Assembly (NCBI GenBank): GCA_963575745.1
Contig: CAUYUJ010000203.1
Location: 372,001 to 436,000 of the forward strand
Length of the DNA: 64,000 bases
Direction of reading: 5' to 3'
Origin: Prorocentrum cordatum
Lineage: Eukaryota
Below the pieces are notes generated by a model. The model searched no databases, was not told the DNA's origin, and was given only the letters and a program-made list of their open reading frames with translations. The position numbers and the translations under genes are program-made. Numbering within the stretch: the stretch's first letter is position 1; the number at the start of each line of letters is the position of its first letter. Positions 2,347 through 64,000 of the stretch are shown here, piece after piece.

Positions 2347-2392
<46 letters not shown>

Positions 2393-2637: not shown

Positions 2638-2674
<37 letters not shown>

Positions 2675-17100: not shown

Positions 17101-18374
17101 TTGCGAGAATATCCCTCGCGCGTCGTGTCGTCAATGTGCTGAACGCCGCCATTTCACGATCGTCCAGAAGAGTGCGCATCGGGACCACGTCCTGCCAGTC
17201 TGTAGGGCGTTGGCGGGTGTGCTGATATGTTACGCGCAAAGAGGGCGTTGACAGATAGACCCAGACCTGCTTGGCTGCCCCATAGAAACATAACTATATA
17301 ATTGTCCAGCGCTCCGCTGAGTCTCCACTCTTATCCGTGCTCTTATCCGCCTGCCTTCCCCAAGGCCCCCGCAACACAATTGCGACAGGTACGGGTTGAA
17401 GCTGTTGATGGGAACGACTCTGTATTTTCAGTCGTAGGCCCGACATGTGGCACCGACAGCGGCCCCAACACACTTGAAGTACGCCCTTGGAGGGAGGCAG
17501 GTTGCGGCAGCGGGCGGGCACCGCGCTACTTGGACTTTTCGAAACGTACTTGTCCAGGTAAGTGGACAAGAGGATCATGAACACGGTGAGCAAGCACAGC
17601 TGTATCATTCTTGCAGAACTCGGTGGAGAAGATGGGGAAGGAACCGAAAAACAAAGGGCTGGCGGACATACCGCGCGGGCAATGGCGGCGGGAGGTAGTG
17701 GAAGGGTGCCGGAACTCCGCTAGAAACTACGACAAAAGGATGCACAGTTGCAAGATGTATTTGTATCAAACGCGGCGAAATGTCTTACGCGGAGCTAACG
17801 CGCCAAACAAGGGAACGATACGCGGCCGCATTGGGCCGCAACTGGCAGCAGGAAAACGAAAACATTAAGCAGGGCAGGGAACAGGACTCTATAGGAGGCA
17901 GACCTATGGAGAGAGGACGCCAGGAGGAAAGACAGCAACAAAAAGGGGTAGGAGGACGAGGAGGCGGGGCAGGAGGAGGGACAATGGTGGATGGTGGCAA
18001 TTAGCGCCTCAAGGTCAAGAAGGCCTGAATTGTGGAAGTGCGTTGGTACTCCTCCCTGCGGCCGTCTACGATGGGGGGGAGCCGAGACGGAAACGACAAG
18101 CCGAGGCGGCATCGACGGGACGAGGGTGGGAGGGAGGGAGGAACTAGGGGGAGGAGGAGGGACGACGAGGAGGGGGGAGAAGGGACGGGAGAGCTAGGGC
18201 AACTATCTTCGCGCTTCGCGCTCTGCGAAGCGCGATTAGCTTCGCGCTTTCGCTTCGCCCCGCCCCCTCGGAAGCAGGGTGAGGCACTCGCGCCCCGCCC
18301 TGCAACCGCCCAGACCGCGAAGCGCGACCAACTTCGCACCCTCGTGGTGGCCCCAGGTCGGAGGACCGAGCAGC

Positions 18375-18750
18375 AGCGGCGATGCGATGCACTGGCGATG
18401 CACTGGCGACGTCGGCGATGCATCGGCGCCGCCGGCATGGAGAAGATCTGGCTCCGCATCGAGCCGCACCGCAAATGCTGGGAGGGCGACAAGCCACCCC
18501 CACCCCCAGTCCCGACCCCATCCCCGAACCCGCGATCCAGGGAGTCGGGACCGGGGGTGGGGGGGGCTCTTCGGGATCCAAATATGAAGAAAACGCCCCC
18601 ACCCCCAGTCCCGACCCCCCCTGGATCGCGGGTTCGGGGATGGGAGTCGGGACTGGGGGTGGGGGTGGGAATTCGCCTTCTGAAATGCATCGGCGAAGCG
18701 GTGCACTCCTCCGACCCCGTGTGCTCGGACCCCATCTGGGGGTCCTGGAC
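18375..18750. mobile_element. Partial copy of palindromic MITE family A, hosting a nested insertion
   Basis: Shares gcgatgcatcggc...catcgagccgca...cctccgacccc...ggaccccatctgg with the copies at 33142 and 63280. Confidence 0.8.
18479..18682. mobile_element. Double-hairpin MITE family B nested in family A, 6-bp TSD AAATGC
   Basis: AAATGC at 18473-18478 and 18683-18688; long inverted termini (ccacccccacccccagtcccgac ... gtcgggactgggggtgggggtgg). Confidence 0.82.
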
Positions 18751-19018
18751 TCGACGAACGTCACGTTGGCCGCTGGGACGGGGAGCGCAGGGAAGCGGGG
18801 GCGGGAGCAGGGGCGGGGGCGACCGAACTACCGGGGCGGGGGCGAGGGCGCAGGCGCCTCCGCGTCCAGCTCCAGCGCCGTCCACTGGGAGGCGGCGTAG
18901 ACCACCTCGGCGGGCCGGGGGGCCGGAGGGGCCTCCCTCGCGCGGGGGGGGGGAGGCTAGGGGGCCAGCTCCTGCGGGGAGGGGCCTCGTTCGCGCAGGG
19001 GGGGCGCCGACAAACTAT

Positions 19019-19144
19019 GGGCCTCCTGGCTGGGTGGGGTCCGAGAAGAGGGGGGTCGGAGGATCGCGCCGCATCGCCGATGCATCGGCGATGTGGCGCG
19101 ATCCTCCGACACCATCTGCTCGGACGTCACCTGGAAGGCCAAGA
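19019..19144. mobile_element. Internally deleted, pure-hairpin copy of MITE family A
   Basis: ggcctcc...gtcggaggatcgcgccgcatcgccgatgcatcggcgatgtggcgcgatcctccgac...ggaaggcc; no clear TSD. Confidence 0.8.
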
Positions 19145-21969: not shown

Positions 21970-22002
<33 letters not shown>

Positions 22003-22345: not shown

Positions 22346-22558
22346 GGAGGGGTACGTCATGGCCTCGGCGCCGCGCGAACACCTCGTGATACCGCGCCTG
22401 GTGCGCCTAACCTGTGGGGTGTCGGCAAAAGGGACCGCGCGGAGAGGCCAGGAGGAAAACGAGGAGAACGAGCGAGACAAGGAAGAGGAGGAGGAGGAAG
22501 AAACTAATCTCCTCCTCCCCTCCGTCCCTGCTCCCGCCCCCTCTCCGATTTACCCAGT

Positions 22559-22688
22559 CACATCGGGTCACGTGATCAGCAGTGACCGGGATCATCTGAT
22601 CCCGTAATCGGGCAAATCGGCTACGCGATCGCCGAACACGAGATGATCACCCAGTACTGGTGATCAGTGGCCGCGATCCCGTGATGTG
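22559..22688. repeat. Imperfect inverted repeat (hairpin)
   Basis: cacatcggg...tgatcagcagtgaccgggatcatct pairs with agatgatcacccagtactggtgatca...cccgtgatgtg. Confidence 0.65.
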
Positions 22689-24500: not shown

Positions 24501-24904
24501 CACATACGAATGAAATTCTAGACCCACGCGAGCGCTACACGGGCTTAGGTTCTAGCTATCTCCGAAGGCCTCATCCTCCTCCGCATCATTCTTATCCACA
24601 TTCACTCCCATGGCAAGCGTGCAATTCCGGAGGCCAGGAAGGCGAGTGGCGTCGTCGGCGTCGACGGCAGCGTCGGCGTCGGCGTCGTCGTCAGCGTCGT
24701 GCTCGCGGGAGGGGGGGAGAGCGAAGGCGGGGAATAAAAAGGAGGAGAAGAAGAAGAAGGAGGGAGGGAGGGAGGTAGAAAAGAAGGGAAGCAGGGAGGC
24801 AGGAAGAGCAACAAGGGAGGGATCTGGAAAGATGGTGAGGGATGGATCAACGGATGAATGAGGATTCCTAATCCAATATTTCCTCCGCCTCCTCATTGTT
24901 GTGT

Positions 24905-25017
24905 CTGCTCCTCCTCCTCCTCCTCCTCATCATCATTATCATGATCCTCATCATGACTCTCATCCTCATCCTCATCCTAATCCTCATCCTCATCATCACC
25001 ATCACCGTCACCATCAC

Positions 25018-25058
<41 letters not shown>

Positions 25059-25200
25059 GCATCATCACCATCATCACCATCACCATCACCATCACCATCA
25101 CCATCACCATCACCATCATCATCATCATCATCAGCATCATCATCATCATCATCATCATCATCATAAGTATCATCATCATCAGCATCATCATCATCAGCCT
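24905..25200. repeat. (CAT)n/(CAC)n microsatellite
   Basis: Direct reading. Confidence 0.97.
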
Positions 25201-25644
25201 CTGTCTCCGCACCTCCGCACTGTTCCTCACCCTCGTCGTGGAGGTGTCCTCCTCCTCGTCCTCCTCGTCATCATTCTCCGAATGGCGGCAACAATGTGTT
25301 TCCCAGAAGGTTTTCTGGGAACATGCAGTTTGGGCCGTGTTGGGGACCTCCTGGAAGCCTCTTGACCTTCTGTGGGCGACTTCGGAAGGACAGAGGGATG
25401 GAGCAACGGCTTAGCGGTTGCGTGTCCATCCTGCTCCTCGGCCTCCACATTCTGTCCGCCCTCCTCCTCCTCCTCCACCCCCTTGTCCTCCTCTATTTTG
25501 TCATCCTCGTTCTCATCATCATACCCTGCCTCCGTCCTTCGTCTCTCCTTTTCCTCATCGTCCCCCTCCACCGCCTCCTCCTCCTCCTACTCTTCGTCCT
25601 CCTCCTCCTCCTCCTCCTCCTCCTCCTTTTGATCTTCCTCCTCG

Positions 25645-31759: not shown

Positions 31760-33141
31760 CGCGTCAGCAGCCTGGGCTTGAACCCTGATGGGGGGGGTAA
31801 TACAGTCGGCCCGTGTCAGAAGGATGCGCGGTAAGGATGCAAGGGCCTTGGAGGCCCATGCTCGCGTTTGTCGAACGAGAACGGCCAGCGAAAGTCGCTA
31901 AGCATGGGCCGACGGGGCAAGGATGCACGGGTACACGTCGTTCATTTCTAATCGTGCTCATTTCTAATTGTGCTCGTTTCTGATTGTTCCTGGCCCCCTA
32001 AGGGCCAGGAAGAGGCCCAGGATAGAACAATTAGAAGTGAAAGGATCTTGGCCCCCAAAGAGTCAAGGAATGTTCGAAGACTTCGAGATGAGCAATGGGT
32101 AGCCCTGGGAGGATTGCCTATCCTTGCCATGCGGGTTGACTGCAGTGGGAGAGCCCCAGAGGGGACGGCACGAGCACCGACGTCCCGTGCGGAAACACCA
32201 GCTCGGGGGGTGAAACGGTGCGAGGAGCCGGGAGGCGCGACTGGGGGGGAACTCACCTGGTCAGGAAAAAAAAGCTCCCCAAACAGTCCACCACCACCAC
32301 CACGATGCCGAGCACCCGGAAGGAGGCGTGGGCAGAAGAGTGCGCAATTGGCAACTCCTCGGGGCACGCAAAGAAAACGCTACACGTCGAATGCGTGCGT
32401 ACGGAAATGCGACTGTAGGACTGCGACGCATAGAAGCGGTGCGCATCACGACTGTGAAGTAGAGAACGAAGCGCCAAACTGTGAAGCAGAAGAGTGGCGA
32501 GGAAGGGAGGGAGGGGAGCGAGGGAGGGGCGAGTAGAAAGGGGAATCAATAACAATCGTTGCAATCCTCTTGTTTAGGCGCGTCGAGGGGTCACGTGCAC
32601 TCCTCCCGTGAGTGGCACATCTCGACGGATCCCTCATGGCCGGCGAGTGATCAGTTGCTGAGCAGCTGGGGGGAACCCTCCCTGCGGCCTTCGAGATATT
32701 ACAAATACCCTAACGACGCCCAAATCCTGACATCCTCCGAAGAGGTACGGTGAGGGCGTTCGTTGAGGAATGTGCCCAGGAAACTTCAGACCCTGGATGA
32801 TTCCTTATCTGATGAGGGCGTCGTTGATATCAATGGCCAAGCACAAATTGGTGTTCTACCAACTCCGCGACCCTGGAGGATTCCTTCCGCAATTGGGCAC
32901 ACCGGCTGACAATGCCTGGCCATGGTCCCAAAGAAGCGGGGCTTCATGGCAGAAGACCCACGAGCAGGGAATCCCCAACGAGACAACCCCACCGTCGCCT
33001 CAACCACCATTGCTCCACCTCCCCCTCCCCTCCCCTCCCCTCCTTCACTCTTACCCCCCGCCTGTCTTTCTGCGTATCTCTCCGTATCTCTCTCACTCTC
33101 TCTCTCTCTCTCTCTCTCCCACTCCCCCCCCCCCTCTATCT

Positions 33142-33377
33142 AGGGGCCTCCTAGATGGGGTCCGAGTAAATGAGGTCGAAGGATCACGCCGCATCTCCGA
33201 TGCATCAGCGATGGATCGGCGATGCATCGGCGATGCACCAGCAACGTCGGTGAAGTTGCACAGGCGACGTCGGCGTGGAGAAACTCGGGCTCCACATCGA
33301 GCCGCATCGCCGATGCATGGGCGATGCGGCGCGATCCTCCGAACCCATCTACTCGGAACCCATCTAAGAGGCCTAGA
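33142..33377. mobile_element. Palindromic MITE family A, 236 bp, 6-bp TSD CTATCT
   Basis: CTATCT at 33136-33141 and 33378-33383; termini AGGGGCCTCC...GAGGCCTAGA; long inverted arms. Confidence 0.88.
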
Positions 33378-34194
33378 CTATCTCTCTGCTCCGCCGTGTC
33401 GTCCGTCTCCTCTGCCGCCGCCGCCTCCTCCTTCCGTCCTCTCACCCCCTGTTCCTCCAAGGCCGCCGCCGCCGCCTCCTGGCGGCAAGACTGGCCAGTC
33501 GCCGCACGCGCAACAAGAGAGTGCGCGGCTCGCGGGCTGCAGGCCTTATCGCGCGCGGGGACGCAGATGGTCTCGTGATCGGTGACCTGCCCCCGGTAAG
33601 GTAAATCATTGACAATGCATCACAAGACGCAGTGATGGACGAAGCATACTCGATGGAACAATCATTGAAAACCAACAATGTCAAACAGCACGATCTGCTA
33701 AATAATAATTTGGGTTCTGAGTCTGGCAGGGGGACGAGGAAAGTATGAAGGGGGATCGAAGACGGATGGATGCAGAGGGGGATAAGACAGCAGGAATGGT
33801 CCCGGACCCCGCAGGGCGCTTGGCCAGGTCTTGCCAGCACACCCCAGGCGATCAGACAGGTGATCAGAGAGACCGAAGAGAGACCCAAGACAGCACAAAA
33901 GCGCTCCAAAAAGCACCCAGATGGCCTCCCGAGGCCCCCAAGACGGCCCAAGAGGCCCTGAACAGGACTCCCAGAATGCAGAAATCGCTTCATTCCCTCT
34001 GGGAAACGTGCATTTTCAGCAAATTCGCTGTTCGGGTCTTAGCAGCGCCCAAAACAGCCACAAAGGCCTCCAGTGTCGCACCGGGACGGCCCGGGGGACC
34101 CCCGAGACAGCCTCTGGACGGCCTGGGCCATGGGAGGCCACCAGGAGGGCCCACGTAGCCCCCTTCAAATCCCTAGGGGGCTCAAGCTCGCCGG

Positions 34195-37100
34195 CTTGAG
34201 GGCCTTGGGGTCGTACGATCTTACGGCCTTAGAGTCTTGGGAGATCAGGGTATTATGGTATTGTGGCGTCAGGGTGTTATGGCATTAGGGTGTTAGGGTC
34301 TCAAGGTATCCAGGCATCATGGCATGATTGAACTAATGTATGACGGTCTTGCGGCCTTAGGGTCTTAGGGCATTCGGGTCTTAAGATATTAAGGGGTGTC
34401 GTTGGGTCTTAGGGTCCTCGGGTCTTACGGTTTTAGGGTCTTCGCGTATTAGGGCCTTGGGGTCTTAGGGTATCAGGGTGTTCGGGACTTATGGCATGAG
34501 GGTCTTAGAGTATGAAGGTCTCAGGGCATCAAGGTCCTAGGGTGTTAGGGTCTTAGAGTCTCAGGGCCTTACAGTGTTTGCGTCTTAGGGTATTGGGGCA
34601 TTCAGGTATTAGGGTATTATGGTATGAAGGTCTTAGGGTATTACTGTTTTAGGGCATGCGGGTGCCAGTCATCGGGGCGGCTTCAGGGTCTTAAGGCATT
34701 GCGGTGTGAATGCGCTAGGGTGTTAGGAGTGTTCGGGCATTCGGGAATTAGGGTGTTCGTGTCTCAGCGCTCTAGTGAACTATCAAGTTAAAGCATTCAG
34801 GTTTTAGGGTCTTACGCTTTGGGGGTCAGAGGACATTGGGATCTTAGGGCATTGGGGCATTACGGTGTAAGGGCGTTAGGGTCTGAGGGCCTTCGGGTCT
34901 TAGGGTATCATGCTCTTAGCGTCTTAGGGCATTGGGGTCTTAGTCAATCAGGGTCCTAGGTTTTAGGTTATTCGGGTCTGAAGGCCGTAGGGTCTCATTG
35001 TCTTAGGGTGTTAGGATCTCTGGGTAATAAGTCTTCTTGCTTTAGGCTATCTGGTCCTAGGGTGTTAGGGCTTTAAGGTGTTCGAACCTTAGGGGCTCAG
35101 GGTTTACGACATTCCGGCCTTGGGGTCTTAGGGTCTTTTGGCACGAGGAATCAAGATCTGAAGACCTTGGGTTTTTAGGGTATTTGGAGCCTTAGAGTGT
35201 CATGGCATTAGAAGTTAGGGCATTAGGGCATCAGGGCAGTAGGGGACTAGGGTATCAAGGCATTCGTGGAATTGGGTCTTCGGCCCTTGGGGTATTGAGA
35301 TATTAGATGTTCGGGTCTTAGTGTATTAGGGCGTTAGGGTCGTAGGGCGTTGGGAGTCTAAAGTCGTCGGGTCTTTGGGTCTTTGGGATTTAGGGTGTTC
35401 GGGTATTCGAATATTAAGGCATTAGGGTATTAGGGCGCTAGGGCTTTATGGGTCCTAGGGTATTGAGGAATCAGGTGTTCGGGCCTGCTGGTCTTAGGGC
35501 ACTCAGGTCTTCGGGTATAGGGGGGCGGGGGGGGCAAAGGTCTTCGGGTATTAAGGACTTAGGGTCTTAGTGTATTGAGGCATTACGATTTTAGGGTATC
35601 AGGGCAATCGGGTATTAGTGCATTGGGGTCTTATGGTCTTAGGGTCCCAGCGTCTTAGCGTCTCAGGGTCTGGTCTAAAGGCAATAGAGCCCTAGGGCCT
35701 TAGGGCCTTGGAGCCTTCGGGTCTTGGGGCCGTCGGGCCTTAGGGCATTGAAGCCTGAGGGCTTTAGGGCCGGAGGGTCTTTGGATATTCGGGTCCGAGG
35801 GTCTCACGGCGTTAAGGTATTAAGCGTTACGGTCTTAGGGTGTCTAACCCCTTACAGTGTTAGGATCTTAGGGTCTTCAGCTCTGAAGGCATTCGGGCCT
35901 TAGGATCTCAGGGCGTAATGGAATTAGAGTGTGATGGGTTTAAAAGGTGTTCTGGTATCAGGGCATCGAGGAAGTATGTTTTAGGGTCTTAGCGTCTTAA
36001 GACCTAGGGTATTAGGGCAGTGTGGTATTGGGGCCTTGGGGTAATGAGCCATGAGGTGTAAGGGTCTTAGGGAAGCAGGGGGGTCTTCAAGGATTAAGGT
36101 ATGAGGGGAATAGGGTCTTCGGGGTATGGGAGTATCCGGGTATTCTACTGTTTTGGTATGGGGGCATCAGCGAATTAAGATATTAGGGCGTTTGGGCGTC
36201 GGGGTGGTAGGGTCTTGGGTTTTCAGGGTCTTAGGGTCTCAGGGACTTGGGGTATCAGGACCTTGGGGTCTTATGGCAGGCGGGGGGGTACGGTCTGAGT
36301 CCAGTAGGGCTTTAGGGTGTGATGCCACCCTTGGTGGCCGGGTGGCCAGGACATGTGAAAATACGTGGGTCTAACTCGGGACCGCCATGTCAGATACCAC
36401 ACGGCGGGGCCTGGGCACGTGGAAAACAAGATTCCAGCTAGGGGCAACCATGTTAGGTACACCTCTGGGTTGCCTGGACACGTGAGAACACGTGACCCCA
36501 GCTCGGGGACACCATGTTCGATACCACCCGGGGTAGCCTGGACACGCGAAAACACATTGCGGTCTTACGGCGTTTTGGTAGTAGGTTTTACGGATTTGGG
36601 TCCCTAGAGCATCCAGGTCTTAGTCTTTGAGTATTATGTTATTAGGGTACGGACCCATGTCATTGATGTATTTCCGTATTCAAGTATTCGTTCAGTCGAG
36701 TATTATTGTATTAGGGTATCAGGGCATTCAGGTATTCGGATATTCGAGTATCGGGGTATTTGAAACATCGGGTAGTACTGCACCTTCGGATGTTAGGGCA
36801 TTAGGGTCTTGGGTCTCGGGGACTTACGGTCTGCGGGTCTTGGGGTAATGGTGTATGAGGGTCTTAGTGTATCAGGGTACTTTTGTCTGACGGCCTTCGA
36901 ATCTTAGGGCATTCATGTAAGATAGAATTCGGGTATTAGGACGTTCGTGTTGTTCGGCACCCGGGTATCAGTGTACGAATGGTATGAGAGTATGAAGGTC
37001 ATAGGTTATTAGGGTACGAGGGTCTTAGGGTCTTAGTGCGCAGGGTCTTAGGGTCGTAGGTTTAGGGTCTTAGGGCACTAGTGTCTTATAGCATTAGGGC

Positions 37101-40100
37101 CTTCGGGAACAGGGTCGTAGCGTAGGGCCTTAGGGCCTCAAGCCTTAGAGTCTCAAGGTCTGCAGGCATTAAGTCCGGCACTCGGGTACTCACAGCATTA
37201 AGGTTTTAAGGTGTTCGGGTAGTAGGGTCTTAAGGCCTGCGGGTGATAGGGCTTTCGGGCATTAGGGCCTTCGGGCATTAGGGTGTTAAGGTATTAGGGC
37301 AATGGGGTGTTAGGGTATTCGCGTATTCGGGCACCTGAGTGTTAGAAAGGATTGCATTTCGATACTTAGGGTCGTCCAGTCTTAGGGTCTTAAGGCATCC
37401 GGGTCGTAGGCTACTGGAACGGGGCAGTAGGGTATCAGGGGCTTGGGGCCTTCGGGTCTTGACCTCCTAGGGTCTTAGGGTCTTAGGGCCTTAGGGTCTT
37501 AGGCTTGAGGGCGTTATGGTCTTAGGAAATTAGGGTATGAGGGCCTCCAGGCCTTACGAACTTGAAGCGTTAGGGCCTTTGGAGGCTAATGTCTTTGGTT
37601 TTTTTTTTTTTTTTTTTTTTTAAACAAAAAAATCGGGTCTGCAAGTGCTAGAGCCTTCGGATGTTCGGAATTTGCGGTCTCAGGGCCGTCGGGAATTAGG
37701 GTCTTAGGGCAATCGGGTATTATGGTATCAAGGTAGTAATGCATTCGTGTAACAGTGTATGCGGGGACTCGGTCAGCCGGGCCTGAAGATGCTAAGGTAG
37801 TCGGGCCTTAGAGCATTGAGGTAGCATGTGTTAGGGTCTTAGGGCCTTCGGGTAGGGTTTCAGGATGATGGGACTCAAGGGTCTCAGGGTCTGAGCGTCT
37901 TTCGGGTATTCGGCTATCAGGGTGTCCGGGTATAGTAGTACCAGGGTATCATATGTGTCATGGTATTGTGGCAATCGGGCCCCAGGGTCTTAGAGTCATG
38001 GGGCTTCAGGGCATTCAGGTTTTAGGTGTTAAGGGTCTTCTGGTCCTCGGACATTCGGGTCTGAGACTATTTGGGGGTTAGGGTCTTAGGGTATTCGGGC
38101 ATTCATGGATTACGAGATCAAGGTATCAGGGTATTCGCCTAATCGGGTCTTCGTGTCTTAGGGTCTCGGGGAATCAGGGTCCTCGGGCTCTAGGGTGTTA
38201 GAGCCTTAGAGCCGCAGGATCTTAGAGCCTCATGACATGAGGGTCTTCAAACCTGAATGCATTAGGGCCGTAGGGTGTTCGGATATGTACGTATCACGGT
38301 ATTCGGTGTGTTAGGGTCTTGGGTATTAGGGCCTTGGGGTGTTAAGATCTTAAGGTCTTACGCCTTCAGGGTATTAGGGCCTTCGGGCCTTTGAGTCTTA
38401 GGGTATTAGGCCTGAGGGCCTTAGGGTACTATGGCCTTAGGGGTTTAGGATATTCTGGTCTTGGGGTATTAGGGCCTTCGGGTGCTAGACTCGTAAGCCC
38501 CTAGGGTCCTCGGGCCCCAGGTCTCAGGGTACTAGGGCATTCGGGTATTAGGGCGTTCAGGTGTTAATGTATACTGCATTAGGGTCTGAGGGCATTGAGG
38601 TATTATGCATGAGAGTATGAGGGTCGTAGGGTCGTATTGTCTTAGGGTGTTATGGTATTACGGCCTTGGCGTATCGGTGTATCAGGCGTTAGCCTCTTAG
38701 GTAGTAGGGTCTTAAGGTGTGGAAGCCTTCGGGTATTAGGAGATGAGGGTCCTGGGGCATCGGGCCATTGTGGTACTACTGTATGAAGGTATCAGCGTAC
38801 TACGGTATTCGGGTGTTAGGGCGAGGAAGTGCTAGGGCCTTTGGGTCTCAGGGTCTTACGGTGTGAGGGACTTTTGGGTCTTAGGGACTTAGGGTGTTAG
38901 GGTCATACGGTATTAGGGTATCAGGGCCGTCTGGTCTCAGGGCCTCAGGGTGTTATGCCCTGAGGGCTTTAGGGCATGATTGCATCAGGGTATTACTGTA
39001 TTATGGTCTCAGGGTGTTAGGGCCTCAAGGTCTTAGGGTATTGGCGTTCTAGGGTAGGAGGGCGTTCGGGTGCTAGGGTATTGGAATATTATGGTGTTAG
39101 GGTGTTCGGTCGTTAGGGCATCAGGGTATTCGGGTATTCGGGCATCAGCGTCTCAGGGTATCAGGGCGTTGAAGTCTTCGGGTCTTGAAGTTTTCTGGCT
39201 TTAAGGTCTGAGGTTGCCGGGGCTTTTAAGTCATAGGGTGAGATGGTAGTGTGGTACTACTGTGTTTGCGCGTTCGCGTCTTAGGGTAATAGAGCATTCT
39301 GGTGTTCTAGTGTTAGGTTATTTGGGAAACAGGGTATGAAGGTATCAGTATATCAAGGCATTCGGGAATTATGGCCTTTTGGTTTTGCGGTATCCGTGCG
39401 TCAGGGTTTTAGGGTATTCGGGTATCAAGGCATCAGGGTATTAGGGCGTTCGGGTGTAACTGCCTTTGGGTATTAAGGTGTTCGCGTGTTAGGGTATGAG
39501 ACAATTGGTGTCTTGGGGTCTCAGGGTATTGGGGCATTCGTGTGTAAGGGCGTTCGCAGGTTAGTGTAGTAGGGTATTGGGGTCTTCGGGTGTTCAGGTG
39601 TTCGGGCATGAAGGTATTGAGATAGCAGGGGATCAAGGTATTAGGGTATTAGGGTATCAATGATGAAATTGGGGTTCTGGTGTTAGGCCATCCGGGTATT
39701 AGGGTCTTAGGGTGTGAGGGTGGTAGGGCTCTAAGATGTTGGGGTCTTGGGGTCGAAAGGTCTGTGGGAATTAGGGTCTTACGGTATTGGGACTTTAAGG
39801 TATTAAGGTATTAGGGTCTTTGGGATTTAGGGTACTTGTGTATTGTGGTATCAGGGTGATCTGGTATGATGGTATACAGGAATTCATGTGTTAGCATAAT
39901 CAGGCATCCGAACATTAAGGCATTGGGGTGTTAGGGTATGGAGACCTTCGGGTGTATGTGTGCTAGATGTTCAACGCATTAGGGTCTTAGGGTCTTAGGG
40001 TTCTGGGGTATTAGGGCCTTCGGGTCTTAAGGTCGTTAGTTGTCCGGATCTTATGGTATTGAGGTATTACGGTGTTCCGGCATCAGGGTCTGCGGACTTG

Positions 40101-40770
40101 AAGGTATTAGGGTTTTGTGGCATTCGGGCGTTCAATAAATATATGGTTTGTGGCATTGGTGGTAGCATGGCAATAAAGCATTATGGTGTTAGGGCAGCAC
40201 GGTATGATGAGGGTCTTAGGGTCTTAGGGTGTTATGGTATTAGGGCCTTCGGGTGTCTGGGTGGCAGGGTCTTAGGGCGTTCGGGTCTTAGGGACTTAGG
40301 GTGTTAGGTTCTCAAGGTCCTATGGTTTTCATATGCTAGGGTCCTATGGGTTTGGCGCCTTAGGGTCTCTGGGCTTTATGATCTTAGGGTGTTCGGGCCC
40401 TGGGGTCTTCGGGTCTTGAGGTGTTCCGGTGTTAGGGCCGTAGGGTATCAGGGTCTTAGGGCGTCAATGTCTCAGGGTAGTATGGTACTAGGGTCTTGGG
40501 GTCCTAGGAGTCTGACGGTCTTAGGGCATTACGGCGTTATGGTCTTGGGGTTAGTAGGTTCTTAGGGTCTTGGGGTGTTAGTGTCCTAGGGCATTCTAGC
40601 ATTATGGAACTAAGGCATTAGAGGCTTAGGGTCTTAGAGTCTTATGGCCTTAGGGTATGCGGGTCATGGGGCATTAGGACCTTAGGGTCTTAAGGCCTTA
40701 GGGCGTTATGGTCTTAGGGTATTAGGGTCGTGGGATCTTAGGATGTGTAGGTATTCTGGTTTTCGGGTGT
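34195..40770 (+). repeat. 6.5-kb degenerate octamer satellite (TTAGGGTC/TTAGGGTA/TTAGGGCA/TTCGGGTA)
   Basis: ~8-bp periodicity with a TTAGGG core, G/T-rich plus strand, almost no ORFs; T25 run at ~37598-37622. Confidence 0.93.
36322..36560. repeat. ~64-bp tandem repeat (about 3.5 copies) embedded in the octamer array
   Basis: cc(a/t)gg(a/g)ca(t/c)g(t/c)g..aa motif at ~36345, 36410, 36473 and 36537. Confidence 0.8.
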
Positions 40771-40809
40771 ATGTTTTTCCGCGTGGAAACGGGCAAACGG
40801 CCCGAAAGA

Positions 40810-40866
40810 CCATCATCACCGAATTCTCATCATCACCATCATCACCACCACCACCAGCATCATCAC

Positions 40867-40952
<86 letters not shown>

Positions 40953-41653
40953 GCACCGTTATCACATCACCATCATCATAATCATCATCTTCATCATCAT
41001 CCTCATCCTCATCATAATCATCACGACCATTCATAATTATCATGTCGTTGACCCCTTGCGAGAACGACATCCGCTGCCCCCTCGAACGAGAGCCGCCGAG
41101 CATGCTGGACTGGCACGGTGGCAATTTGTTTCTCAGGCAGATCGATATTTACACATCCGCTACGCGGATGGAGGACGGATGTTTCCAAGACGGGGCTTTG
41201 GACTGAATGGCAGGCCGATGGGGCGTTACCTTTCAAGGGGGGAGTTCCCGCAGTGCAAAAGGAACGTTTGTATGGGGATTCTGCGGAGGGGTCTTGGGAC
41301 AGGAGGGTGTATTGCAGAATCATTGACGCATCCTGGGTTTACTCGGATCCTCCTCGTCCTTCCCCGCCTCCTCTCTCTTCTCTGTCATCCTCTATGCCCC
41401 TCCATCCTCATACTAGCTCCCATTCCCTAGGTCTCAACCCGTGTTCCCTTCTCATGGTTCCTGGCTTCTGCGGATGCTCAGGCAATCCAGGCAATCGCGT
41501 CTGTTCCTGTTACCTGTTAGTGCTGCTGTTGCTGCTACGGGCACTGTTGTAGTTCCTCCTCCTCCCCCTCCGCCTCCTCATCATCATCGTCATCGTCATC
41601 GTCGTCGTCTTCGTCGTCGTCGTCATCACCATCATCATCGCCGCCACCCCGAA

Positions 41654-41729
<76 letters not shown>

Positions 41730-42140
41730 GTCATCGTCATCATCATCATAATCGCCATCATCACCATCATCATCACCATCATCATCTGCACCACCCACCT
41801 TCATCAACATTTACATCACCCCAACCATCACCATCACCATCAGCATTGCCATTAGCGTCATCATTGCCATCATCCTTATCACCATCAGCATCATTATCAT
41901 CACCATCAGCATCCTCATCCTCATCCTCATCCTCATCCTCATCCTCATCCTACTCATCATCCTCATCCTCATCCTCATCCTCATCCTCCTCCTCCTCCTC
42001 CTCCTCCTCCTCCTCCTCCTCCTCATCATCATCATCATCATCATCATCATTCTCATCATCATGCTCGTCGTCATCATTATCATCAGCAACACCATCAACA
42101 AACTCAGATTCGTCATCACCATCAATACCGTCATGTTCAT
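40810..42140. repeat. (CAT)n/(CGT)n/(CCT)n microsatellite blocks
   Basis: Direct reading; interrupted by unique sequence at ~41040-41550. Confidence 0.9.
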
Positions 42141-42999
42141 GCGCTGGCAGCACAACATGCGCCGGAAGCAAGACGGCGCGCTCGGGCGCCTGCCCGCCCC
42201 CCCCCCCTCGGGGAGCTCTACCCGGGACCCCCCAGGCGATACCCCCCGGCAATTCCTCCCCCCCCCAGGGCCCCCCCTCTGGGGCCTCCCCGCTCCCCTT
42301 GCCCTCGCGCCCTCCCCAGGCCCCTTCCCCCCCCCCCCCTCCTCCCCGAGGGGGAAAACAAAAAGACTCGAGGGGGAAAAACAAATGCCTCCGAGGAGGG
42401 GGGGAAAACAGCTTCGAGGCCCCCGGGCCCTCCCCCGCTCCCCCCCCCCGAGGATGAACAAAAACTCGAGAAGGGAACAAAAATCTCCGAGGGCCCGGAC
42501 GGCCGCAGCGGCCCGCGGGCCGCGACCTGACCAAGACTCAGAGAGCCCGCGGCGGCCGCACCAAGACGGCGCAAGAGAGCCCCATGACAGCCCATGGGGT
42601 CACAAAGGACCACCAAGACTGCTCCACCCGAGCCCAAGACAGCCACAATACGGCTCAAAATGAGCATCATGAGAGACCGTCAAAAACTGAAAACGAAAGG
42701 AGCCACATGCGACGGCCTTCCGGGCTTGTGCTGCGGTCAGAACTTGTTTGTTTAGCGTGTCGCGGCGGCGACCCCTACGACACGCAATGCCCTGCAAGCG
42801 GATGGAGTGTCACGCCGCTTCGCTGGGCTGGAGGGCTGGAAAATGCTCGGGACACGGTGAAGAGCACTATTCGGATGACCCGCCCCAGAACTTCGTCACG
42901 AATGTGTGGCCTCCTGGCGAGCTCCCTATGGGGCCAGGAAACGTGTGAGGGGTGTGCCGAAACAGAGACATGCGGAGGGCACAGACGATGTGGCAGGAA

Positions 43000-43115: not shown

Positions 43116-43899
43116 ACGCGGGGCGCTGCCTCCTCAAAACGAGGACCCAACACCACAGGATGGTTGGGACAAAAGCACAGAGCGAGAGCGAGAGAGGGAG
43201 AGAGAGGGATGGGGAGAGAGGGGCAGAAGGCCACAGGGGAAGCGCAGGGCAGCGGCCTGGAAGCCGCGCTTGGGGTGGTACCCGCGGTTGCTGCTCTGCG
43301 AGTGGGGACTGCGGCCCGCGCCGAGGCTGCAGGCACACCGGCCGCCCCACGCACTCCACCGCCGACTGGCTTACTCTCCGCCTGCTCCCGCACAACCGTT
43401 GTTGACTCTTGACTCTTGCGCAGAAAGGCAACTCCTGGGAGGTATTCGTCAGAACGATTACGGGCGATAAGCCAAAGGAAGGGGCCACTGAGCTCGAACA
43501 GGCCGGACTAACCCTGGAATCAAGCCAGAGTGAGCCCGGGATACAGCCGGATACAATGAGATGAAGCTGGACGAGGCCAAACTAGGACAGTTTTCGACCA
43601 GGGGAATAAAAGCGCCGATGCTGTATTTTGCCTTCCAGGAGTTGCATCCCAACCTGAGGTGCCATCCGCGCCATCGTCGTCGCCCTCCTCCGTCCAGCGG
43701 CGCCCTCGCCTCCCGAGGAGGATGAGACACAAAGGGCAGAGGGTCAAGGGCGCAATCGCGCGACCCCAGTTCCCGTTTGACCTTGCACGTTCGTGGCGGG
43801 GTGCCAGCGGTCGCGGTATCATTCATCACTAGCCGCTTCCAACATTCACAAACTCGCGAAGCTGAGACTTGCGCTACAATCAACCTCTTGATCACCGAT

Positions 43900-43967
43900 C
43901 ATGGTCATCATCGTCACCACCATCAACAACAATAATCGCAATCGACACCATCATCAACATTACAATT

Positions 43968-44012
<45 letters not shown>

Positions 44013-44017
44013 ATCAG

Positions 44018-44048
<31 letters not shown>

Positions 44049-44126
44049 GACACCATCCTCATCGTCATCTTTATCAGCACCACCACCATCATCATCACCA
44101 CCATCGCCCCCGCCATCATCCCCACC

Positions 44127-44160
<34 letters not shown>

Positions 44161-44226
44161 TCACCATCATCAACATCATACTCATAATCAGCGCCGTCAT
44201 CATCAACATTAGTAGCACAGCATCAG

Positions 44227-44268
<42 letters not shown>

Positions 44269-44390
44269 TATCATCATCATCATCATCATCCGCAGCATCA
44301 TCATCATCATCATCATCATCATCATTATTATCATCATCATCATCATCATCCGCAGCATCATCATCATCATCAGCAGCATCATCACCTTCA
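43900..44390. repeat. (CAT)n microsatellite abutting the LINE 5' end
   Basis: Direct reading. Confidence 0.95.
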
Positions 44391-44406
44391 TAATCTCGAG
44401 CCACTT

Positions 44407-45643
44407 TTGCTCGAGCATTTTGCGCGAGCAGCTGACCTGCGCCTCTACGGGGTGCTTGGGGGACCACGCCCAAAGAGTTCTTTCCATCGGATTCTTGCTG
44501 TCGCTGACGAGCACTGGGAGCTTCGAATATCTGCCACCAGTCGTGCGTATTATCAGTGCAAGGCTTGCCACAAGTTCGAGTGGAACGATCGCTTGCTCAA
44601 GAACGGTTCCTGTTGTTCCCACTGCAATGACAAGGTCAAGCACTATGTGCCAAAGTCGCAGAAGGGCGGCAAAGGAGTTCAGTCCGAGCAGGTGGGTGGG
44701 AAGGACGTCCAGGAGATCGGGCTCGATCGGCTGCTGCAGCAAGTGGTGGCGAAGACGGAGTCTACCGCGCTCAAAGAAGCGGTCTCTGCGGAGCTGGTCA
44801 AGCTCCAGGCGCCAAGGCGCGAGACCATCGCCCCGGGCACGGAGGCCGAGGCGGTCGGAAGCGCCACGGGAGTGTGGCGCGACGCTGATCACACACATTC
44901 ACAAGCAGTCGCAGCAGTGGTGAGATTACAGGACGGTCGGACCATTGCGATGGAGAAGGAGGTTCAGGCCGCGCAGGTTCTGGCGCAGGCCGAAAATGGG
45001 GAGAGGGCGGTCACCGAGGCGTTGGCGCGCGCGGAGGGCATCACCTTCGACACGGCCGATGCCAGTCAGGGAGCCGCCAACCAGCCGAAGTTCCAGGTCA
45101 CTTGGAATGAGATGCTGTTCCACGGGCTCGACGAGCTGGAGCGCGAGGAGACGGAGCGCCAGGGGCTGCGCCTCGTCCGCGCCCAGCTGCAGGAACTCGC
45201 TGAGCGCCCAGGAGTCCGACATCCAGGTGATGCTGGAGAAAGCTGCCGCGGTGCGCGAGGAGGTCGACGACCGCCTCGCGAAGAGAAGGAAGACGACGGA
45301 GGGCCAGACGACCCCAGGTGGAGGGCGCGACCAGGGCGCCGCAGGTGGGGGCTCCACGCCCGGGGCCACTCAGGCGGCCGAGGCGGGGGCCGCTGCCGCC
45401 GCCGCGCCCGCCGCCAAGGCCGAGGCCGAGCTGCGCGTGCAGGAGCAGATCGAACGGGAGGCGGCCAATCTGTCGTCGGCCAAGTTCGCGGCCCAGCGCG
45501 CGGCGCCGGAAGAGCAGAAGGCGACCCTCAGCAGGTCCATGGGCAAGGGCAAGGGCAGAGGCAACCGCGAGGGAATGGGCAGCGGAGATCCAAATGCACA
45601 TGCAGCTGGCGGGCCTGCCGCGAGCGACACCGACGAGCTGTGA
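44407..45643 (+). pseudogene. LINE ORF1-like (CxxC-x13-CxxC zinc ribbon plus coiled-coil), frameshift near 45200
   Basis: CKAC...CSHC, then A/E/Q-rich helices; continues in the 44945-45643 frame (DIQVMLEKAAAVREEVDDRLAKRRK). True start codon uncertain. Confidence 0.65.
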
Positions 45644-53960: not shown

Positions 53961-54069
53961 GATCGAGTCCGATCGATGGCCGGAGGCTGTTAGCAAGGCC
54001 GATACGCTCGCTCGTAAGCGCTCGTAGTTCCTTTCGACTCGCATCGCGACTGTTCTTACTCACTCAATC

Positions 54070-54070
54070 G

Positions 54071-54125
<55 letters not shown>

Positions 54126-54374
54126 GATCATGATCATCATCATCATCATCATCGTCGTCCATCGTCGTCCATCATCATCATCATCGTCATCGTCGTCGTC
54201 GTCATCATCATCATCATCGGCATCATCGTCATCATCATGGTCGTCATCAGCATCATCAGTATCGTCATCAGCATCGTCATCACCATCGTCATCGTCATCA
54301 TCGTCATCATTGGCACCACCACCACCACCACCATCATCATCATCATCGTCATCGTCGTCGTCATCATCATCATT

Positions 54375-54431
<57 letters not shown>

Positions 54432-54509
54432 GGCATCATCGTCATCATCATGGTCGTCATCAGCATCATCAGTATCGTCATCAGCATCGTCATCATCGTC
54501 ATCATTGGC

Positions 54510-54543
<34 letters not shown>

Positions 54544-54595
54544 AACGTATCATCCTCATCAGAAGCAATATCGTCACGATACGATCATCCTGATG
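54070..54595. repeat. (CAT)n microsatellite at the LINE 3' end; purest next to the element
   Basis: Perfect (tca)n at 54071-54125, then degenerate, with an internal duplication. Confidence 0.96.
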
Positions 54596-55414
54596 ACATC
54601 TGCCTGCTGCTACTCTTCATGCTCATCCTCCTCCCCGTCTGTGGGTGCTGGTGCTGGTGCTTCCACTGCTGTTGCTGGTGCTCCTGCTGCTGCTCTTTCT
54701 CCTCTATCTTATCCTCGGCCCTCCTCATATCTTCTCCAATTCCAATCTTCTCCTCGTCACCCTCCTCCTCCCCCTACTTCCACCCCCTCTCCCTGTCCTT
54801 CTCTTTCGCCTTCCTGTCTCCCTTCTCCCCTCACATCTCCGTCTCTTGCTGCTTCACTCCCCCCAAAACAGACCCACTCCCCAGTGCTCGCTTGCCAATC
54901 CTGACTCGCCCGCATCCGCCCCCTCCACGCCCCACGCGAGCGGCGCTGCCGGAACGGCTCGACGGACGTGTAATAGTAGGGTCTCTTCTCCGTGCAGCTG
55001 CTGTCGGAAGGGGGGGGGGGAAGCGGCCGGGGCCGCAGCCCGCGCCGACCCTCGAACGGGACGAGGGGGGCAATGACGACCACGAGGCGCCGATGGAGAG
55101 AGACGTGTTTTGTGTGGTGGGGCAGCCCAGTTTCGAGGCAGCCCCCTCTGGCCCCGCCGCTGTCCTTTCTCGGCGGTCCGAGATCTGACAGCAGCAAGGC
55201 AACCCAGGGTGGGCAGCACAGGCAGACAGATGCTGCCGTCTCGAGGCACTGGCGAATGCACGGCCACGGGGCTTGAAACAGGCACTTGTTGTGCTGCGGG
55301 TGCGTCGCAGCCTCTGAAGCAAAAGAGGAGGCCTCGATCGCGAAGCAGCGTGTCTGTAAGGGTCCATGCTTGTGAGGTCCGGGGCGAAATTCGGTGGATC
55401 CAGAGTCGGTGGCG

Positions 55415-62480: not shown

Positions 62481-63195
62481 CGACTCGTGAGCACATCACC
62501 CTCATCGTCACCATCACAATCGTCTCAGTTGTCAGCAGTCCCCCCCCCTACCCACGACCTCCTGATTACCCGAAGGGTGGTCGTATGGGTACGAAAAGTA
62601 GATCCCGAAAAGTATACCGAACTGAAGCGAATGTGCTAGCTAATCCCCTATGGCGTTTCGAGATGAACTTCAACGCATTTCTGCGCACGTTTCGGATGTG
62701 CCGCTCAATTGGTGCACTTCTTCGCTGGCTGAGAGGAACTCAACAAATTTAGTCTGCTCTCACGCTGCGTAGTCATAATTCCACACAGGGTCGCGCTTTG
62801 CCAAAACATAGGACGCTGCGAAATTGGGCCTCAATCCGTTGCAAGCCATGGGCTGTGCCCGAAAGGGCACCCAAAGAAAGACGTCATCCGTGGCGCGGCT
62901 GGGCCGCCCGATCGATGATGCATTTTCTAGAAGGAGCAAGAAATAACATGCATCTCAACTTTCGGAGTCCGTCGGGAGGGCCAACACCGATCCGAGACAT
63001 CCGCGCAGAGCTCCGGAAGTGTATGCTTGTGCCGTTTCTTGTTCGTTGATCTTCGCAGCGCGATGCTCCGACCCTGACGGCGGCAACGGCGGCGTCAGTC
63101 AATCAATCAATTCGCGGAGCCCAACGGCGGCGGCCCACCTCACAGGGCGATCACCTCACATGCACGGCTGGCCAGGTCGACCGAGCGGCGGCAGC

Positions 63196-63276
63196 CTAGC
63201 CGCCCCTGAGGAAGCCCCCAAAGATCTCGCTGAACGAGGGCCCCTCCTGGACGCTGAAGAGCGCCACGGGGCCGAC
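63196..63276 (-). CDS. Putative last exon of a host gene (VGPVALFSVQEGPSFSEIFGGFLRGG*)
   Basis: AG|G acceptor at 63277/63276, GC3-rich codons, TAG stop at 63198-63196, in frame with the upstream exon. Confidence 0.68.
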   Translation of the reverse strand, partial: VGPVALFSVQEGPSFSEIFGGFLRGG

Positions 63277-63279
63277 CTT

Positions 63280-63522
63280 AGAGGCATCCTGGATGGGGTC
63301 CGAGTAGATGGGGTCGGGGGATCGCGCCGCATCGCCGATGCATCGCCGATGTATCGCCGATGCATCGGCGATGCATCGGCGATGCATCGGCGACGTCGCG
63401 ATGCATCGGCGACGCCAGCGTGGAGAGCATCGGACTCCAGATCGAGCCGCATCGCCGATGCATCGGCGATGCGGCGCGATCCTCCGACCCCATCTACTCC
63501 GACCCCATCTGGGAGGCCTAGA
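63280..63522. mobile_element. MITE family A copy (243 bp, TSD GACCTT) forming intron 63277-63525 (-)
   Basis: GACCTT at 63274-63279 and 63523-63528; minus strand reads AAG|GTC-element-AAG|GTC. Confidence 0.88.
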
Positions 63523-63525
63523 GAC

Positions 63526-63664
63526 CTTCATGTCCCCCTTCTGGTTGCCGGTCACCACCATCAGCCCCTCCGCACCCTCGGGCACCTTCGTGCGCGGGAG
63601 GTCGAACTGCAGATCTTCGCCCGTCTTGCGCAGCAGCTTCACGGCCGACTGCGCCGACGACAGC
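63526..63664 (-). CDS. Putative internal exon, 139 bp (LSSAQSAVKLLRKTGEDLQFDLPRTKVPEGAEGLMVVTGNQKGDMK); product unknown
   Basis: AG|G acceptor and AG|GT donor, strong GC3 bias, protein-like composition unlike the surrounding repeats. Confidence 0.72.
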
Positions 63665-63684
63665 CTCAGGGCAAGGGGCATTAT

Positions 63685-63905
63685 AGGAGGACACCCGGAT
63701 CGGGTCCGAGCAGGTGTGGTCGGAAGATCGCGCGGCATCGCCGATGCACCGCCGAAGCATCGCCGAAGCATCGGCGACGTCGGCGATGCACGGGAGACGT
63801 CGGCGTGGGGAAAGCCGGGCCCCACATCGAGCCGCATCGCCGATGCATCGGCGACGCGTCGGGGTCCTCCGACAACATCTGCAATCGAGCCTGAATGGAG
63901 AGGAC
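63685..63905. mobile_element. Older, diverged family A copy inside the upstream intron
   Basis: gggtccgag...gatcgcgcggcatcgccgatgc...cacatcgagccgcatcgccgatgcatcggcg...cctccgac; no TSD visible. Confidence 0.8.
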
Positions 63906-64000
63906 ACGCGAGAGCAAGCAAAGCCCTTTTGAGGGCCAACTGGCCGCAGGAATGTAAAAGGCATAGGCCGCTAAACGCAGAACAAGAGGGCGGCCCTTGA

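What the first reader, a model, noticed from the sequence alone, without database searches (positions are those of the whole stretch)
63196..63664. A palindromic MITE that is exactly an intron, with both splice sites supplied by its 6-bp TSD
Seen: a 243-bp hairpin element flanked by AAGGTC (minus strand) on both sides, between two coding-like segments. Splicing at AAG|GT...AG|GTC removes 249 nt and restores one TSD copy and a seamless frame (...GNQKGDMK|VGPVALF...GG*). The same family with the same termini sits at 33142-33377 with a different 6-bp TSD (CTATCT) and no gene context, so the element itself carries no splice sites. The 249-nt intron is 3n and stop-free (ORF 63196-63939 reads through), so retention would preserve the frame. 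Known: introner transposons generate introns in dinoflagellates, and duplication of an AG|GT proto-splice site is a proposed route. Inference: this is an intron gain by a family that becomes an intron only when its target contains AGGT-like sequence, and the long hairpin may bring the splice sites together. Whether this family is already described is unknown.
Basis: partly seen in the sequence, partly recalled or inferred. Interest (0 to 1): 0.85.

Follow-up and report, generated by a model that had tools for sequence, protein, structure and literature searches.

The report
Transposon-made intron spliced at its duplication
A small hairpin-forming transposon landed inside a real protein-coding gene and is removed from the RNA exactly as an intron, using splice signals that lie in the 6-base target duplication it made, a route to new introns already described in other dinoflagellates.

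Summary
A 243-bp palindromic element (63280-63522) is flanked by perfect 6-bp repeats (AAGGTC on the minus strand). A sister copy (33142-33377, 83% identical) has the same ends and a different 6-bp repeat, CTATCT.

The flanks are real exons. In 4 of 4 public runs laid (four studies, one a declared polyA RNA library), a 1.6-2.3 kb contig joins 63273 to 63523. It skips exactly 249 nt, and only one of the seven possible cut registers gives GT..AG. A 473-aa database protein (P0055) is 100% identical to both exons and runs unbroken across the junction.

So the intron equals the element plus one repeat copy, and both splice dinucleotides lie in the repeat. The gene continues upstream beyond the window. 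A third, older copy (63688-63880) sits in the preceding intron.

The mechanism is not new. Roy et al. (preprint 10.1101/2020.10.14.339549) describe Polarella introner classes that recruit both splice sites from AGGH or NAGGH duplications. Gozashti et al. 2022 report similar cases. New here are only the family, the 6-bp duplication and probably the host.

Genome-wide behaviour could not be tested because no genome is held. The 3n, stop-free property is unremarkable.

The parts
63280..63522 (-). Palindromic non-autonomous TIR element (copy A, 243 nt). It forms the body of the intron.
   Evidence: 70-nt arms, 91% complementary; fold -196.1 kcal/mol, z -14.5.
63523..63528 (-). Upstream copy of the 6-bp target-site duplication (AAGGTC on the minus strand). 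AAG is the last codon of the exon. GT at 63525-63524 is the 5' splice site.
   Evidence: Joint ('both' = 6; GT..AG register at cut +3).
63274..63279 (-). Downstream copy of the duplication. AG at 63278-63277 is the 3' splice site. GTC (63276-63274) is the first codon of the last exon.
63277..63525 (-). The intron: 249 nt, phase 0, GT..AG. It equals the element plus one duplication copy.
   Evidence: skipped in one long contig in each of 4 of 4 runs, with 0 mismatches in the flanks. P0055 is contiguous across the junction.
63526..63664 (-). Penultimate exon (139 nt) of a gene for a 473-aa protein of no known family. RNA contigs cover it to 63667, and the last 3 nt are shared with the upstream exon.
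   Evidence: pieces 63523-63667; loose end behind 63667. (48/48 identical to P0055 401-448).
62933..63276 (-). Last exon. Coding runs to the stop codon at 63198-63196, followed by about 260 nt of 3' UTR. Contigs end at 62933-63043.
   Evidence: pieces 62933/62944/62953/63043 to 63273. (27/27 identical to P0055 447-473)..
63665..64000 (-). 3' part of the preceding intron. The acceptor AG is at 63666-63665. The upstream exon lies beyond the window end.
   Evidence: no contig cover at 63866-64000. The loose end behind 63667 is identical in X1 and X15 and reads, when translated by hand, as P0055 residues 391-400.
63688..63880 (.). Copy C of the same family, 75-84% identical to copy A, with no recognisable duplication. 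It lies inside the preceding intron, about 22 nt from that intron's acceptor.
   Evidence: (D2, D3, I2).
33142..33377 (.). Copy B (236 nt), flanked by CTATCT at 33136-33141 and 33378-33383. No gene evidence was found around it.
   Evidence: 3 of 3 flanking ORFs scanned (33143-33619, 33445-34038, 33721-34155) have no Pfam family.
19017..19144 (.). Copy D, a short internal-deletion derivative (about 128 nt) with no clear duplication.
18356..18746 (.). Copy E, degraded. It is interrupted at about 18482-18680 by a second, unrelated palindromic element.

Best explanation
A non-autonomous, hairpin-forming DNA transposon (MITE) that makes 6-bp target-site duplications inserted into the coding sequence of a nuclear gene. 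The host is probably a high-GC dinoflagellate. The target hexamer was AAGGTC, between a Lys and a Val codon. Duplication of this hexamer put ..AAG|GT at the upstream end of the element and ..AG|GTC at the downstream end. The spliceosome now removes the element plus one duplication copy (249 nt, phase 0). This restores the pre-insertion mRNA exactly.

The element carries neither splice dinucleotide itself. Its long stem places the two splice sites within a few nucleotides of each other in the pre-mRNA, which may help their pairing (inferred).

Shown: the element, the duplication, the family, the exact skip in RNA-derived contigs, and the uninterrupted protein. Inferred: that insertion created the intron, that removal is by the ordinary spliceosome, that the hairpin helps, and that other exonic copies behave the same way.
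For: Element and insertion.
- Perfect 6-bp repeats sit at homologous element boundaries in two copies, with different repeat sequences: GACCTT and CTATCT. The chance of each is about 1/4096.
- Five copies occur in 64 kb. The terminal-repeat pattern gives 5 matches against 0 in 100 shuffles.

Splicing.
- in 4 of 4 runs (4 studies; X15 is a declared polyA RNA-Seq metatranscriptome), one contig of 2251, 2085, 1688 or 1641 nt joins 63273 to 63523. It skips 249 nt with 0 mismatches over both flanks.
- The same contigs in X1 and X15 also leave the genome at 63667 with an identical loose end, so they also lack the preceding intron. That is cDNA-like behaviour.
- Of the 7 possible cut registers within the repeat, only one gives GT..AG (read).

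Protein.
- P0055 (473 aa) matches the exons at 48/48 and 27/27 residues and is contiguous across the junction.
- P0002 (88% identical to P0055) and P0004 are also contiguous there.

Other.
- Both acceptors in the window are followed by G+T or G+C. This fits the dinoflagellate 'GH after the 3' splice site' motif reported in 10.1101/2020.10.14.339549.
- Fold: -196.1 kcal/mol, z -14.5. The stem closes 6 nt from the 5' end of the intron and 5 nt from its 3' end.
- Precedent: Polarella classes 12-14 recruit both splice sites from AGGH or NAGGH duplications. Florenciella introners co-opt both from the insertion site.
Against: - All laid runs are assembled contigs. Three of the four are not on record as RNA. 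No run holds the whole genomic stretch (best share 0.64). RNA and DNA of one strain were therefore not compared, and an allele that never received the insertion would give the same joined contig.
- Contigs cannot show how efficient splicing is, or whether the intron is sometimes retained.
- Only 1 of the 5 copies in the window coincides with an intron, so family-level intron creation is not shown.
- Copies C, D and E show no clear duplication, so the 6-bp length rests on 2 copies.
- No orthologue or paralogue genomic locus was available to show an intron-less ancestral state.
Confidence: 0.85

Rival explanations
1. The insertion is polymorphic or specific to the assembly. The RNA contigs and P0055 come from strains or alleles with an empty site, so the joined form is simply the uninterrupted gene and nothing is spliced at this position.
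For: No run holds the complete genomic stretch (maximum share 0.64). The joined form is by construction identical to an empty site ('both' = 6). No retention or exon-element junction contig of this locus is among the pieces listed (777 more were not shown).
Against: Copy A is 17% diverged from copy B, and its own arms differ at 9%. The exons and 3' UTR, in contrast, are identical over about 480 nt in 4 of 4 runs of 4 studies and 2 coded organism labels. This suggests the insertion is much older than the strain divergence, although part of the copy divergence could predate insertion. An unspliced copy would add 83 residues inside a conserved C-terminal domain. The one exonic copy carries AGGT in its hexamer, which is expected in only about 1% of random hexamers.
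Confidence: 0.06
2. The element is removed by a hairpin-guided, non-conventional excision, of the kind proposed for Amoebophrya introners and euglenid non-conventional introns. The GT..AG register within the repeat would then be a coincidence.
For: The stem is extremely stable and brings the exon ends together. The 6-nt repeat leaves the cut register undetermined. Farhat et al. 2021 (PMC7789003; passages read) propose that inverted repeats join the exon boundaries of introners with 3-5 nt direct repeats and non-canonical ends.
Against: A canonical GT..AG register exists, followed by the G typical of dinoflagellate acceptors. The non-genic copy B lacks any such register. Roy et al. find that TSD-derived introns of Polarella class 14 strongly prefer GT. 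Ordinary spliceosomal removal is therefore the simpler reading.
Confidence: 0.06
3. An older intron at this position was later invaded and largely replaced by the element.
For: Copy C shows that the family also lands inside pre-existing introns.
Against: The intron contains 0 nt other than the element and one duplication copy, and the duplication itself carries both splice sites. An invaded intron would keep its own ends outside the duplication.
Confidence: 0.03

Closest known systems
Polarella glacialis introner classes 14, 13 and 12 (Roy et al., preprint 10.1101/2020.10.14.339549; parts 1-2 of the text read. The journal version, Curr Biol 2023, was seen only as a reference.)
   Same: These are DNA-transposon-like elements with a target-site duplication that create introns in a dinoflagellate. 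[quoted passage not shown] GT is preferred. The mRNA is restored exactly. The intron here is phase 0, in line with the phase-0 bias reported.
   Different: The duplication is 6 nt here (NAGGHN form), against 4 nt (AGGH) or 5 nt (NAGGH). The preprint lists lengths of 3, 4, 5 and 8. The element sequence is different and so, probably, is the host lineage (about 60% GC). Here one intron is documented, not hundreds.
Introners of Florenciella sp. and other cases in Gozashti et al. 2022 (PMC9860276; passages read)
   Same: The element carries neither splice site, and both are co-opted from the insertion site or duplication.
   Different: The hosts are stramenopiles and the elements are unrelated.
Aureococcus and Micromonas introner elements (Huff, Zilberman & Roy 2016, recalled; summarised in PMC11282704, passages read)
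   Same: These are MITE-like elements with terminal inverted repeats and duplications whose insertion yields a spliceable intron.
   Different: Those elements carry one splice site and take only the other from the duplication.
Amoebophrya introner elements (Farhat et al. 2021, PMC7789003; passages read) and the pattern-defined 'introner elements' of Prorocentrum cordatum (10.1101/2022.07.25.501386; passages read)
   Same: Inverted repeats at the intron ends form a hairpin that joins the exon boundaries, with short direct repeats over the exon/intron borders. The P. cordatum genome has 59.7% G+C, similar to this window.
   Different: Amoebophrya introners mostly have non-canonical ends and 3-5 nt direct repeats. 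The P. cordatum paper searched for a pattern (inverted repeat 8-20 nt, direct repeat 3-5 nt) and, in the passages read, describes no families. Its supplementary tables were not seen.

Membership tests
Introner / introner-like element (a transposable element that creates spliceosomal introns) | The sequence is a transposable element: multi-copy, with terminal inverted repeats and a target-site duplication. | tested here: met
   Five copies in the window. 70-nt arms, 91% complementary. Perfect 6-bp repeats of different sequence in 2 of 5 copies, at the same element boundaries. 14 of 21 database proteins inspected carry peptides coded by the element's terminal repeats with differing flanks.
Introner / introner-like element | The intron boundaries coincide with the element and its duplication. 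| tested here: met
   The skip of 249 nt equals 243 nt of element plus 6 nt of duplication.
Introner / introner-like element | The insertion is removed from mature RNA, leaving the coding sequence intact. | tested here: met
   The joined contig occurs in 4 of 4 runs, one a declared polyA RNA library. P0055 is contiguous and 100% identical to both exons. Caveat: these are contigs, and RNA and DNA of one strain were not compared.
Introner / introner-like element | Many introns in different genes derive from the same family. | not testable with these tools
   No genome is held. The element was not found in metagenome, viral or prokaryote contig collections. In the window, 1 of 5 copies equals an intron and 1 of 5 lies inside another intron.
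Polarella class-14-type mechanism (both splice sites from the duplication) | Neither GT nor AG lies in the element; both lie in the duplicated target, AGG[T/C/A]. | tested here: met
   GT is at 63525-63524 and AG at 63278-63277, both inside the AAGGTC copies. Copy B has the same termini and a CTATCT duplication, with no GT/AG register.
Polarella class 12/13/14 families themselves (sequence membership) | Duplication of 4 or 5 nt, and sequence similarity to those families. | tested here: not met
   The duplication is 6 nt in 2 of 2 informative copies.
A named DNA-transposon superfamily | An autonomous partner with a transposase, plus the termini and duplication length typical of the superfamily. 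| not testable with these tools
   No transposase-like ORF was found: 0 of 102 long window ORFs hit Pfam. By recall only, 6-bp duplications are reported for few superfamilies (for example IS3EU, Dada). No assignment is made.

The most novel reading that the evidence does not exclude
This may be an undescribed introner family of a high-GC dinoflagellate, with a 6-bp duplication and no target specificity. It would be mobilised by a transposase type not yet linked to intron gain. On this reading it acts genome-wide as a 'facultative' introner. Only copies whose hexamer happens to read NAGG[T/C/A]N on the sense strand become clean introns. The GC-rich body, which is stop-free in most frames (4 of 6 in copy A, 4 of 6 in B, 5 of 6 in D), would let many other transcribed copies persist unspliced in mRNAs. 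The very high depth of element words in transcriptome contigs and the many element-coded peptides in protein databases hint at such persistence.
Probability: 0.2. Interest if true: 0.55.

Novelty: new member of a known kind. Interest (0 to 1): 0.38.

Why it matters
This is a clean, RNA-supported example of intron birth by transposon insertion in which the element contributes no splice signal at all. The duplicated proto-splice site (AAG|GTC) does all the work. A sister copy with an unrelated duplication serves as an internal control.

It adds one more lineage, and one more duplication length, to the evidence that dinoflagellate intron richness comes from such elements and that proto-splice-site targets shape intron phase. 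It does not open a new question. Its value lies in annotation (these introns and their read-through ORFs confuse gene prediction) and as a seed for a genome-wide census of the family.

Tried and rejected
- Whole-genome census of the element and its duplications: not possible, because no genome is held for the window.
- Pattern scans for other copies. A 33-nt core found 0 hits in metagenome contigs. A 23-nt core found 1 hit in metagenome contigs (L001), 0 in viral contigs and 1 in genome contigs (L002, a Methylophilaceae MAG). L001 reads as ordinary bacterial coding DNA without the element. Neither locus has the terminal-repeat pattern (0 of 2). Both are taken as chance matches.
- The exon-1 peptide alone against proteins of 28-91 aa: no homologue. 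The later search with the read-through protein found the gene.
- Pfam: 0 of 102 long window ORFs, and neither P0002 nor P0055, match any family. Bacterial proteins that share the C-terminal repeat domain (P0003, P0005, P0008, P0009, P0012, P0015) gave only unrelated or sub-threshold families over that region. The gene's function stays unknown.
- Earlier findings of this scan by place, sequence and words: nothing.
- 3n length and absence of stops as a sign of selection for tolerated retention: rejected. Copy B is 236 nt. Most frames of all copies are open because of composition. The probability of no stop in 83 codons is 0.136.
- The ATG at 63681 as the start codon: rejected. RNA contigs enter the exon at 63664-63667 from an upstream exon outside the window.
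- Copy C as a second element-equals-intron case: rejected. No duplication is visible, the acceptor lies about 22 nt beyond it, and the upstream exon is not within 63866-64000.
- Tandem-repeat scan of the GC-skewed stretch 33900-41000: no array at score >= 200.
- Parts of the stretch without contig cover (62800-62922 and 63866-64000) are not used as evidence of anything beyond 'not seen'.

Full report
**What is in the sequence**

On the minus strand, a coding-like segment ends ...GAC ATG AAG and is followed by GTC. A 243-nt element (63522 down to 63280) comes next. After it, AAG GTC GGC... opens a second coding-like segment that runs to a stop codon at 63198-63196. The hexamer AAGGTC is present once on each side of the element, at 63528-63523 and 63279-63274.

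The element is a long imperfect palindrome. Its 70-nt terminal arms are 91% complementary (I1). Its interior is built of 11-nt units that are themselves palindromic (D1). As RNA, the 249-nt intron folds into one long stem at -196.1 kcal/mol. Shuffles average -109.8 kcal/mol (z -14.5; 0 of 200 fold as well). The stem closes 6 nt from the 5' end and 5 nt from the 3' end.

**It is a transposable-element family**

BLAST of the element against the window finds five copies.
- A: the copy in question.
- B: 33142-33377, 236 nt, 83.1% identical.
- C: about 63688-63880, 75-84% identical.
- D: about 19017-19144, a short internal-deletion form.
- E: about 18356-18746, interrupted by an unrelated palindromic element at 18482-18680.

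A 26-nt terminal-repeat pattern has 5 matches at <=3 mismatches, against 0 in 100 shuffles. In the alignment, copies A and B begin and end at the same element positions. A is flanked by GACCTT/GACCTT and B by CTATCT/CTATCT on the + strand. Two independent perfect hexamer repeats at homologous boundaries establish a 6-bp target-site duplication. Copies C, D and E show none that I could recognise.

The family is also abundant outside the window. Element words reach summed depths of thousands in the transcriptome-like contig sets (table 2). Of the 53 proteins found with the read-through translation, 37 match the element-coded part. Of the 21 of these that I read, 14 carry peptides coded by the terminal repeats next to unrelated flanks. 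The other 7 resemble only the internal 11-nt repeat.

**The flanks are real exons and the element is removed**

A run search found 20 runs that hold part of 63100-63700, and 15 of them hold half or more of its words, in 9 studies. The highest share is 0.64, roughly the exonic fraction plus shared element words.

I laid four runs from four studies. X1 and X2 are coded organism A, and X8 is organism B; none of the three is on record as RNA. X15 is a declared polyA RNA-Seq metatranscriptome. In 4 of 4 runs, one long contig (2251, 2085, 1688 and 1641 nt) covers 62933-63043 to 63273 and then 63523 to 63667 with 0 mismatches. Each contig skips 249 nt, with 6 nt that fit either side (tables 5 and 8). 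Of the seven possible cut registers, only one gives GT..AG. It is AAG|GT...AG|GTC, which joins 63526 to 63276.

The contigs also leave the genome at 63667, and X1 and X15 show the identical loose end there. Translated by hand, that loose end reads as residues 391-400 of P0055. The contigs therefore lack the preceding intron as well, and behave as cDNA.

The gene's upstream exons lie beyond the window end. There is no cover at 63866-64000, which I do not use as evidence beyond 'not seen'. The ATG at 63681 is intronic, and the acceptor is the AG at 63666-63665.

**The protein**

The read-through translation retrieved P0002 (355 aa; 92-93% identical to the two exons). A second search then retrieved P0055 (473 aa). 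P0055 is identical to the window's exons at 48 of 48 and 27 of 27 residues and runs unbroken across the junction. A more distant homologue, P0004 (141 aa), is also contiguous there.

The C-terminal part resembles a repeat unit of large bacterial proteins (P0003, P0005, P0008, P0009 and others). Neither P0055 nor P0002 matches any Pfam family. None of 102 long ORFs elsewhere in the window matched Pfam either.

**Mechanism**

The intron consists of the element plus one duplication copy and nothing else. GT and AG both lie in the duplication, and copy B shows that the element's own ends carry no such signals. The simplest history is insertion into an AAGGTC hexamer at a codon boundary (phase 0). 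Duplication of this proto-splice site then supplied both splice sites.

Both acceptors seen in the window are followed by GT or GC. This fits the exonic 'GH' that Roy et al. report downstream of dinoflagellate 3' splice sites. That the hairpin helps by bringing the sites together is plausible and has been proposed for Amoebophrya introners, but it is untested here.

The 3n, stop-free property is not evidence of anything. Copy B is 236 nt. Most frames of all copies are open. An open frame over 83 codons of this composition has probability about 0.14.

**Rivals**

An empty-site allele in the RNA source strains would give the same joined contig. I rate this low. The element is well diverged (17% from B, 9% between its own arms), whereas about 480 nt of exon and UTR are identical in all four runs. 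Only same-strain DNA and RNA reads can exclude it.

Hairpin-guided non-spliceosomal excision cannot be excluded from contigs. It is unnecessary, however, given a canonical register.

An older intron that was later invaded is contradicted by the absence of any non-element intron sequence.

**Comparison with what is known**

The preprint of Roy et al. (10.1101/2020.10.14.339549; parts 1-2 read) describes 15 introner classes in Polarella glacialis. Class 14 recruits both splice sites from a 4-nt AGGH duplication, class 13 can do so, and class 12 uses a 5-nt NAGGH. The duplication lengths listed are 3, 4, 5 and 8.

Gozashti et al. 2022 (PMC9860276; passages read) report families in which both splice sites come wholly or partly from the duplication, and Florenciella introners that carry neither site.

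The Prorocentrum cordatum genome preprint (passages read) reports 59.7% G+C and introns 'enriched in introner elements'. These were defined by a generic pattern: inverted repeats of 8-20 nt and direct repeats of 3-5 nt.

The window's G+C (mostly 0.57-0.68) and the marine RNA runs fit such a host, but I did not establish the organism.

Two full-text searches found no description of this particular family or of a 6-bp both-sites class: introner + dinoflagellate + target site duplication (59 papers hold at least 2 of the 3 terms, 20 listed), and Prorocentrum + introner (7 papers). Sequence libraries of repeats and the supplementary tables of these papers were not available to me.

**Verdict**

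It is a new member of a known kind, differing in its 6-bp duplication, its sequence family and probably its host. Whether the family creates introns on a genomic scale remains untested.

Noticed in passing
window 63688-63880: A third, older copy of the same element (75-84% identical to copy A) lies in the preceding intron, about 22 nt upstream of that intron's acceptor. It has no recognisable duplication. The penultimate exon is thus bracketed by two copies.
   Followed up: partly
window 18356-18746, nested part 18482-18680: A degraded copy of the family is interrupted by a different G/C-rich palindromic element. Arms of 24-38 nt are 84-100% complementary. This looks like a second MITE-like family nested in the first.
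   Followed up: partly
window 63055-63074: A 20-nt fragment in the 3' UTR is 90% identical to part of the element's terminal repeat (D5). It may be a remnant of another insertion or excision.
   Followed up: no
window 34000-40000: A stretch of about 6 kb has lower G+C (0.50-0.52) and strong GC skew (+0.33 to +0.42). It holds no stop-to-stop ORF of 130 aa or more, and no tandem array at score >= 200. Its nature is unknown.
   Followed up: partly
window 1-3000 and many other places (for example 22000-22600, 24860-25410, 41400-42660, 43870-44920, 54020-55180): There are long microsatellite or low-complexity tracts. Apart from the gene at the right edge, 0 of 102 long ORFs match Pfam, so the window looks gene-poor and repeat-rich.
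   Followed up: no
database proteins P0025, P0018, P0027: Predicted proteins from other loci run from apparently genuine coding sequence straight into element-coded peptide; P0025, for example, starts like a real enzyme-type protein. The stop-free element is therefore read through by gene or ORF predictors, or is retained in some transcripts.
   Followed up: no
window 63318, 63417, 63459 (table 3): Base differences in element-matching contigs, including A>G at 63417, most likely come from other copies of the family and not from editing of this locus. Contigs cannot resolve this.
   Followed up: no
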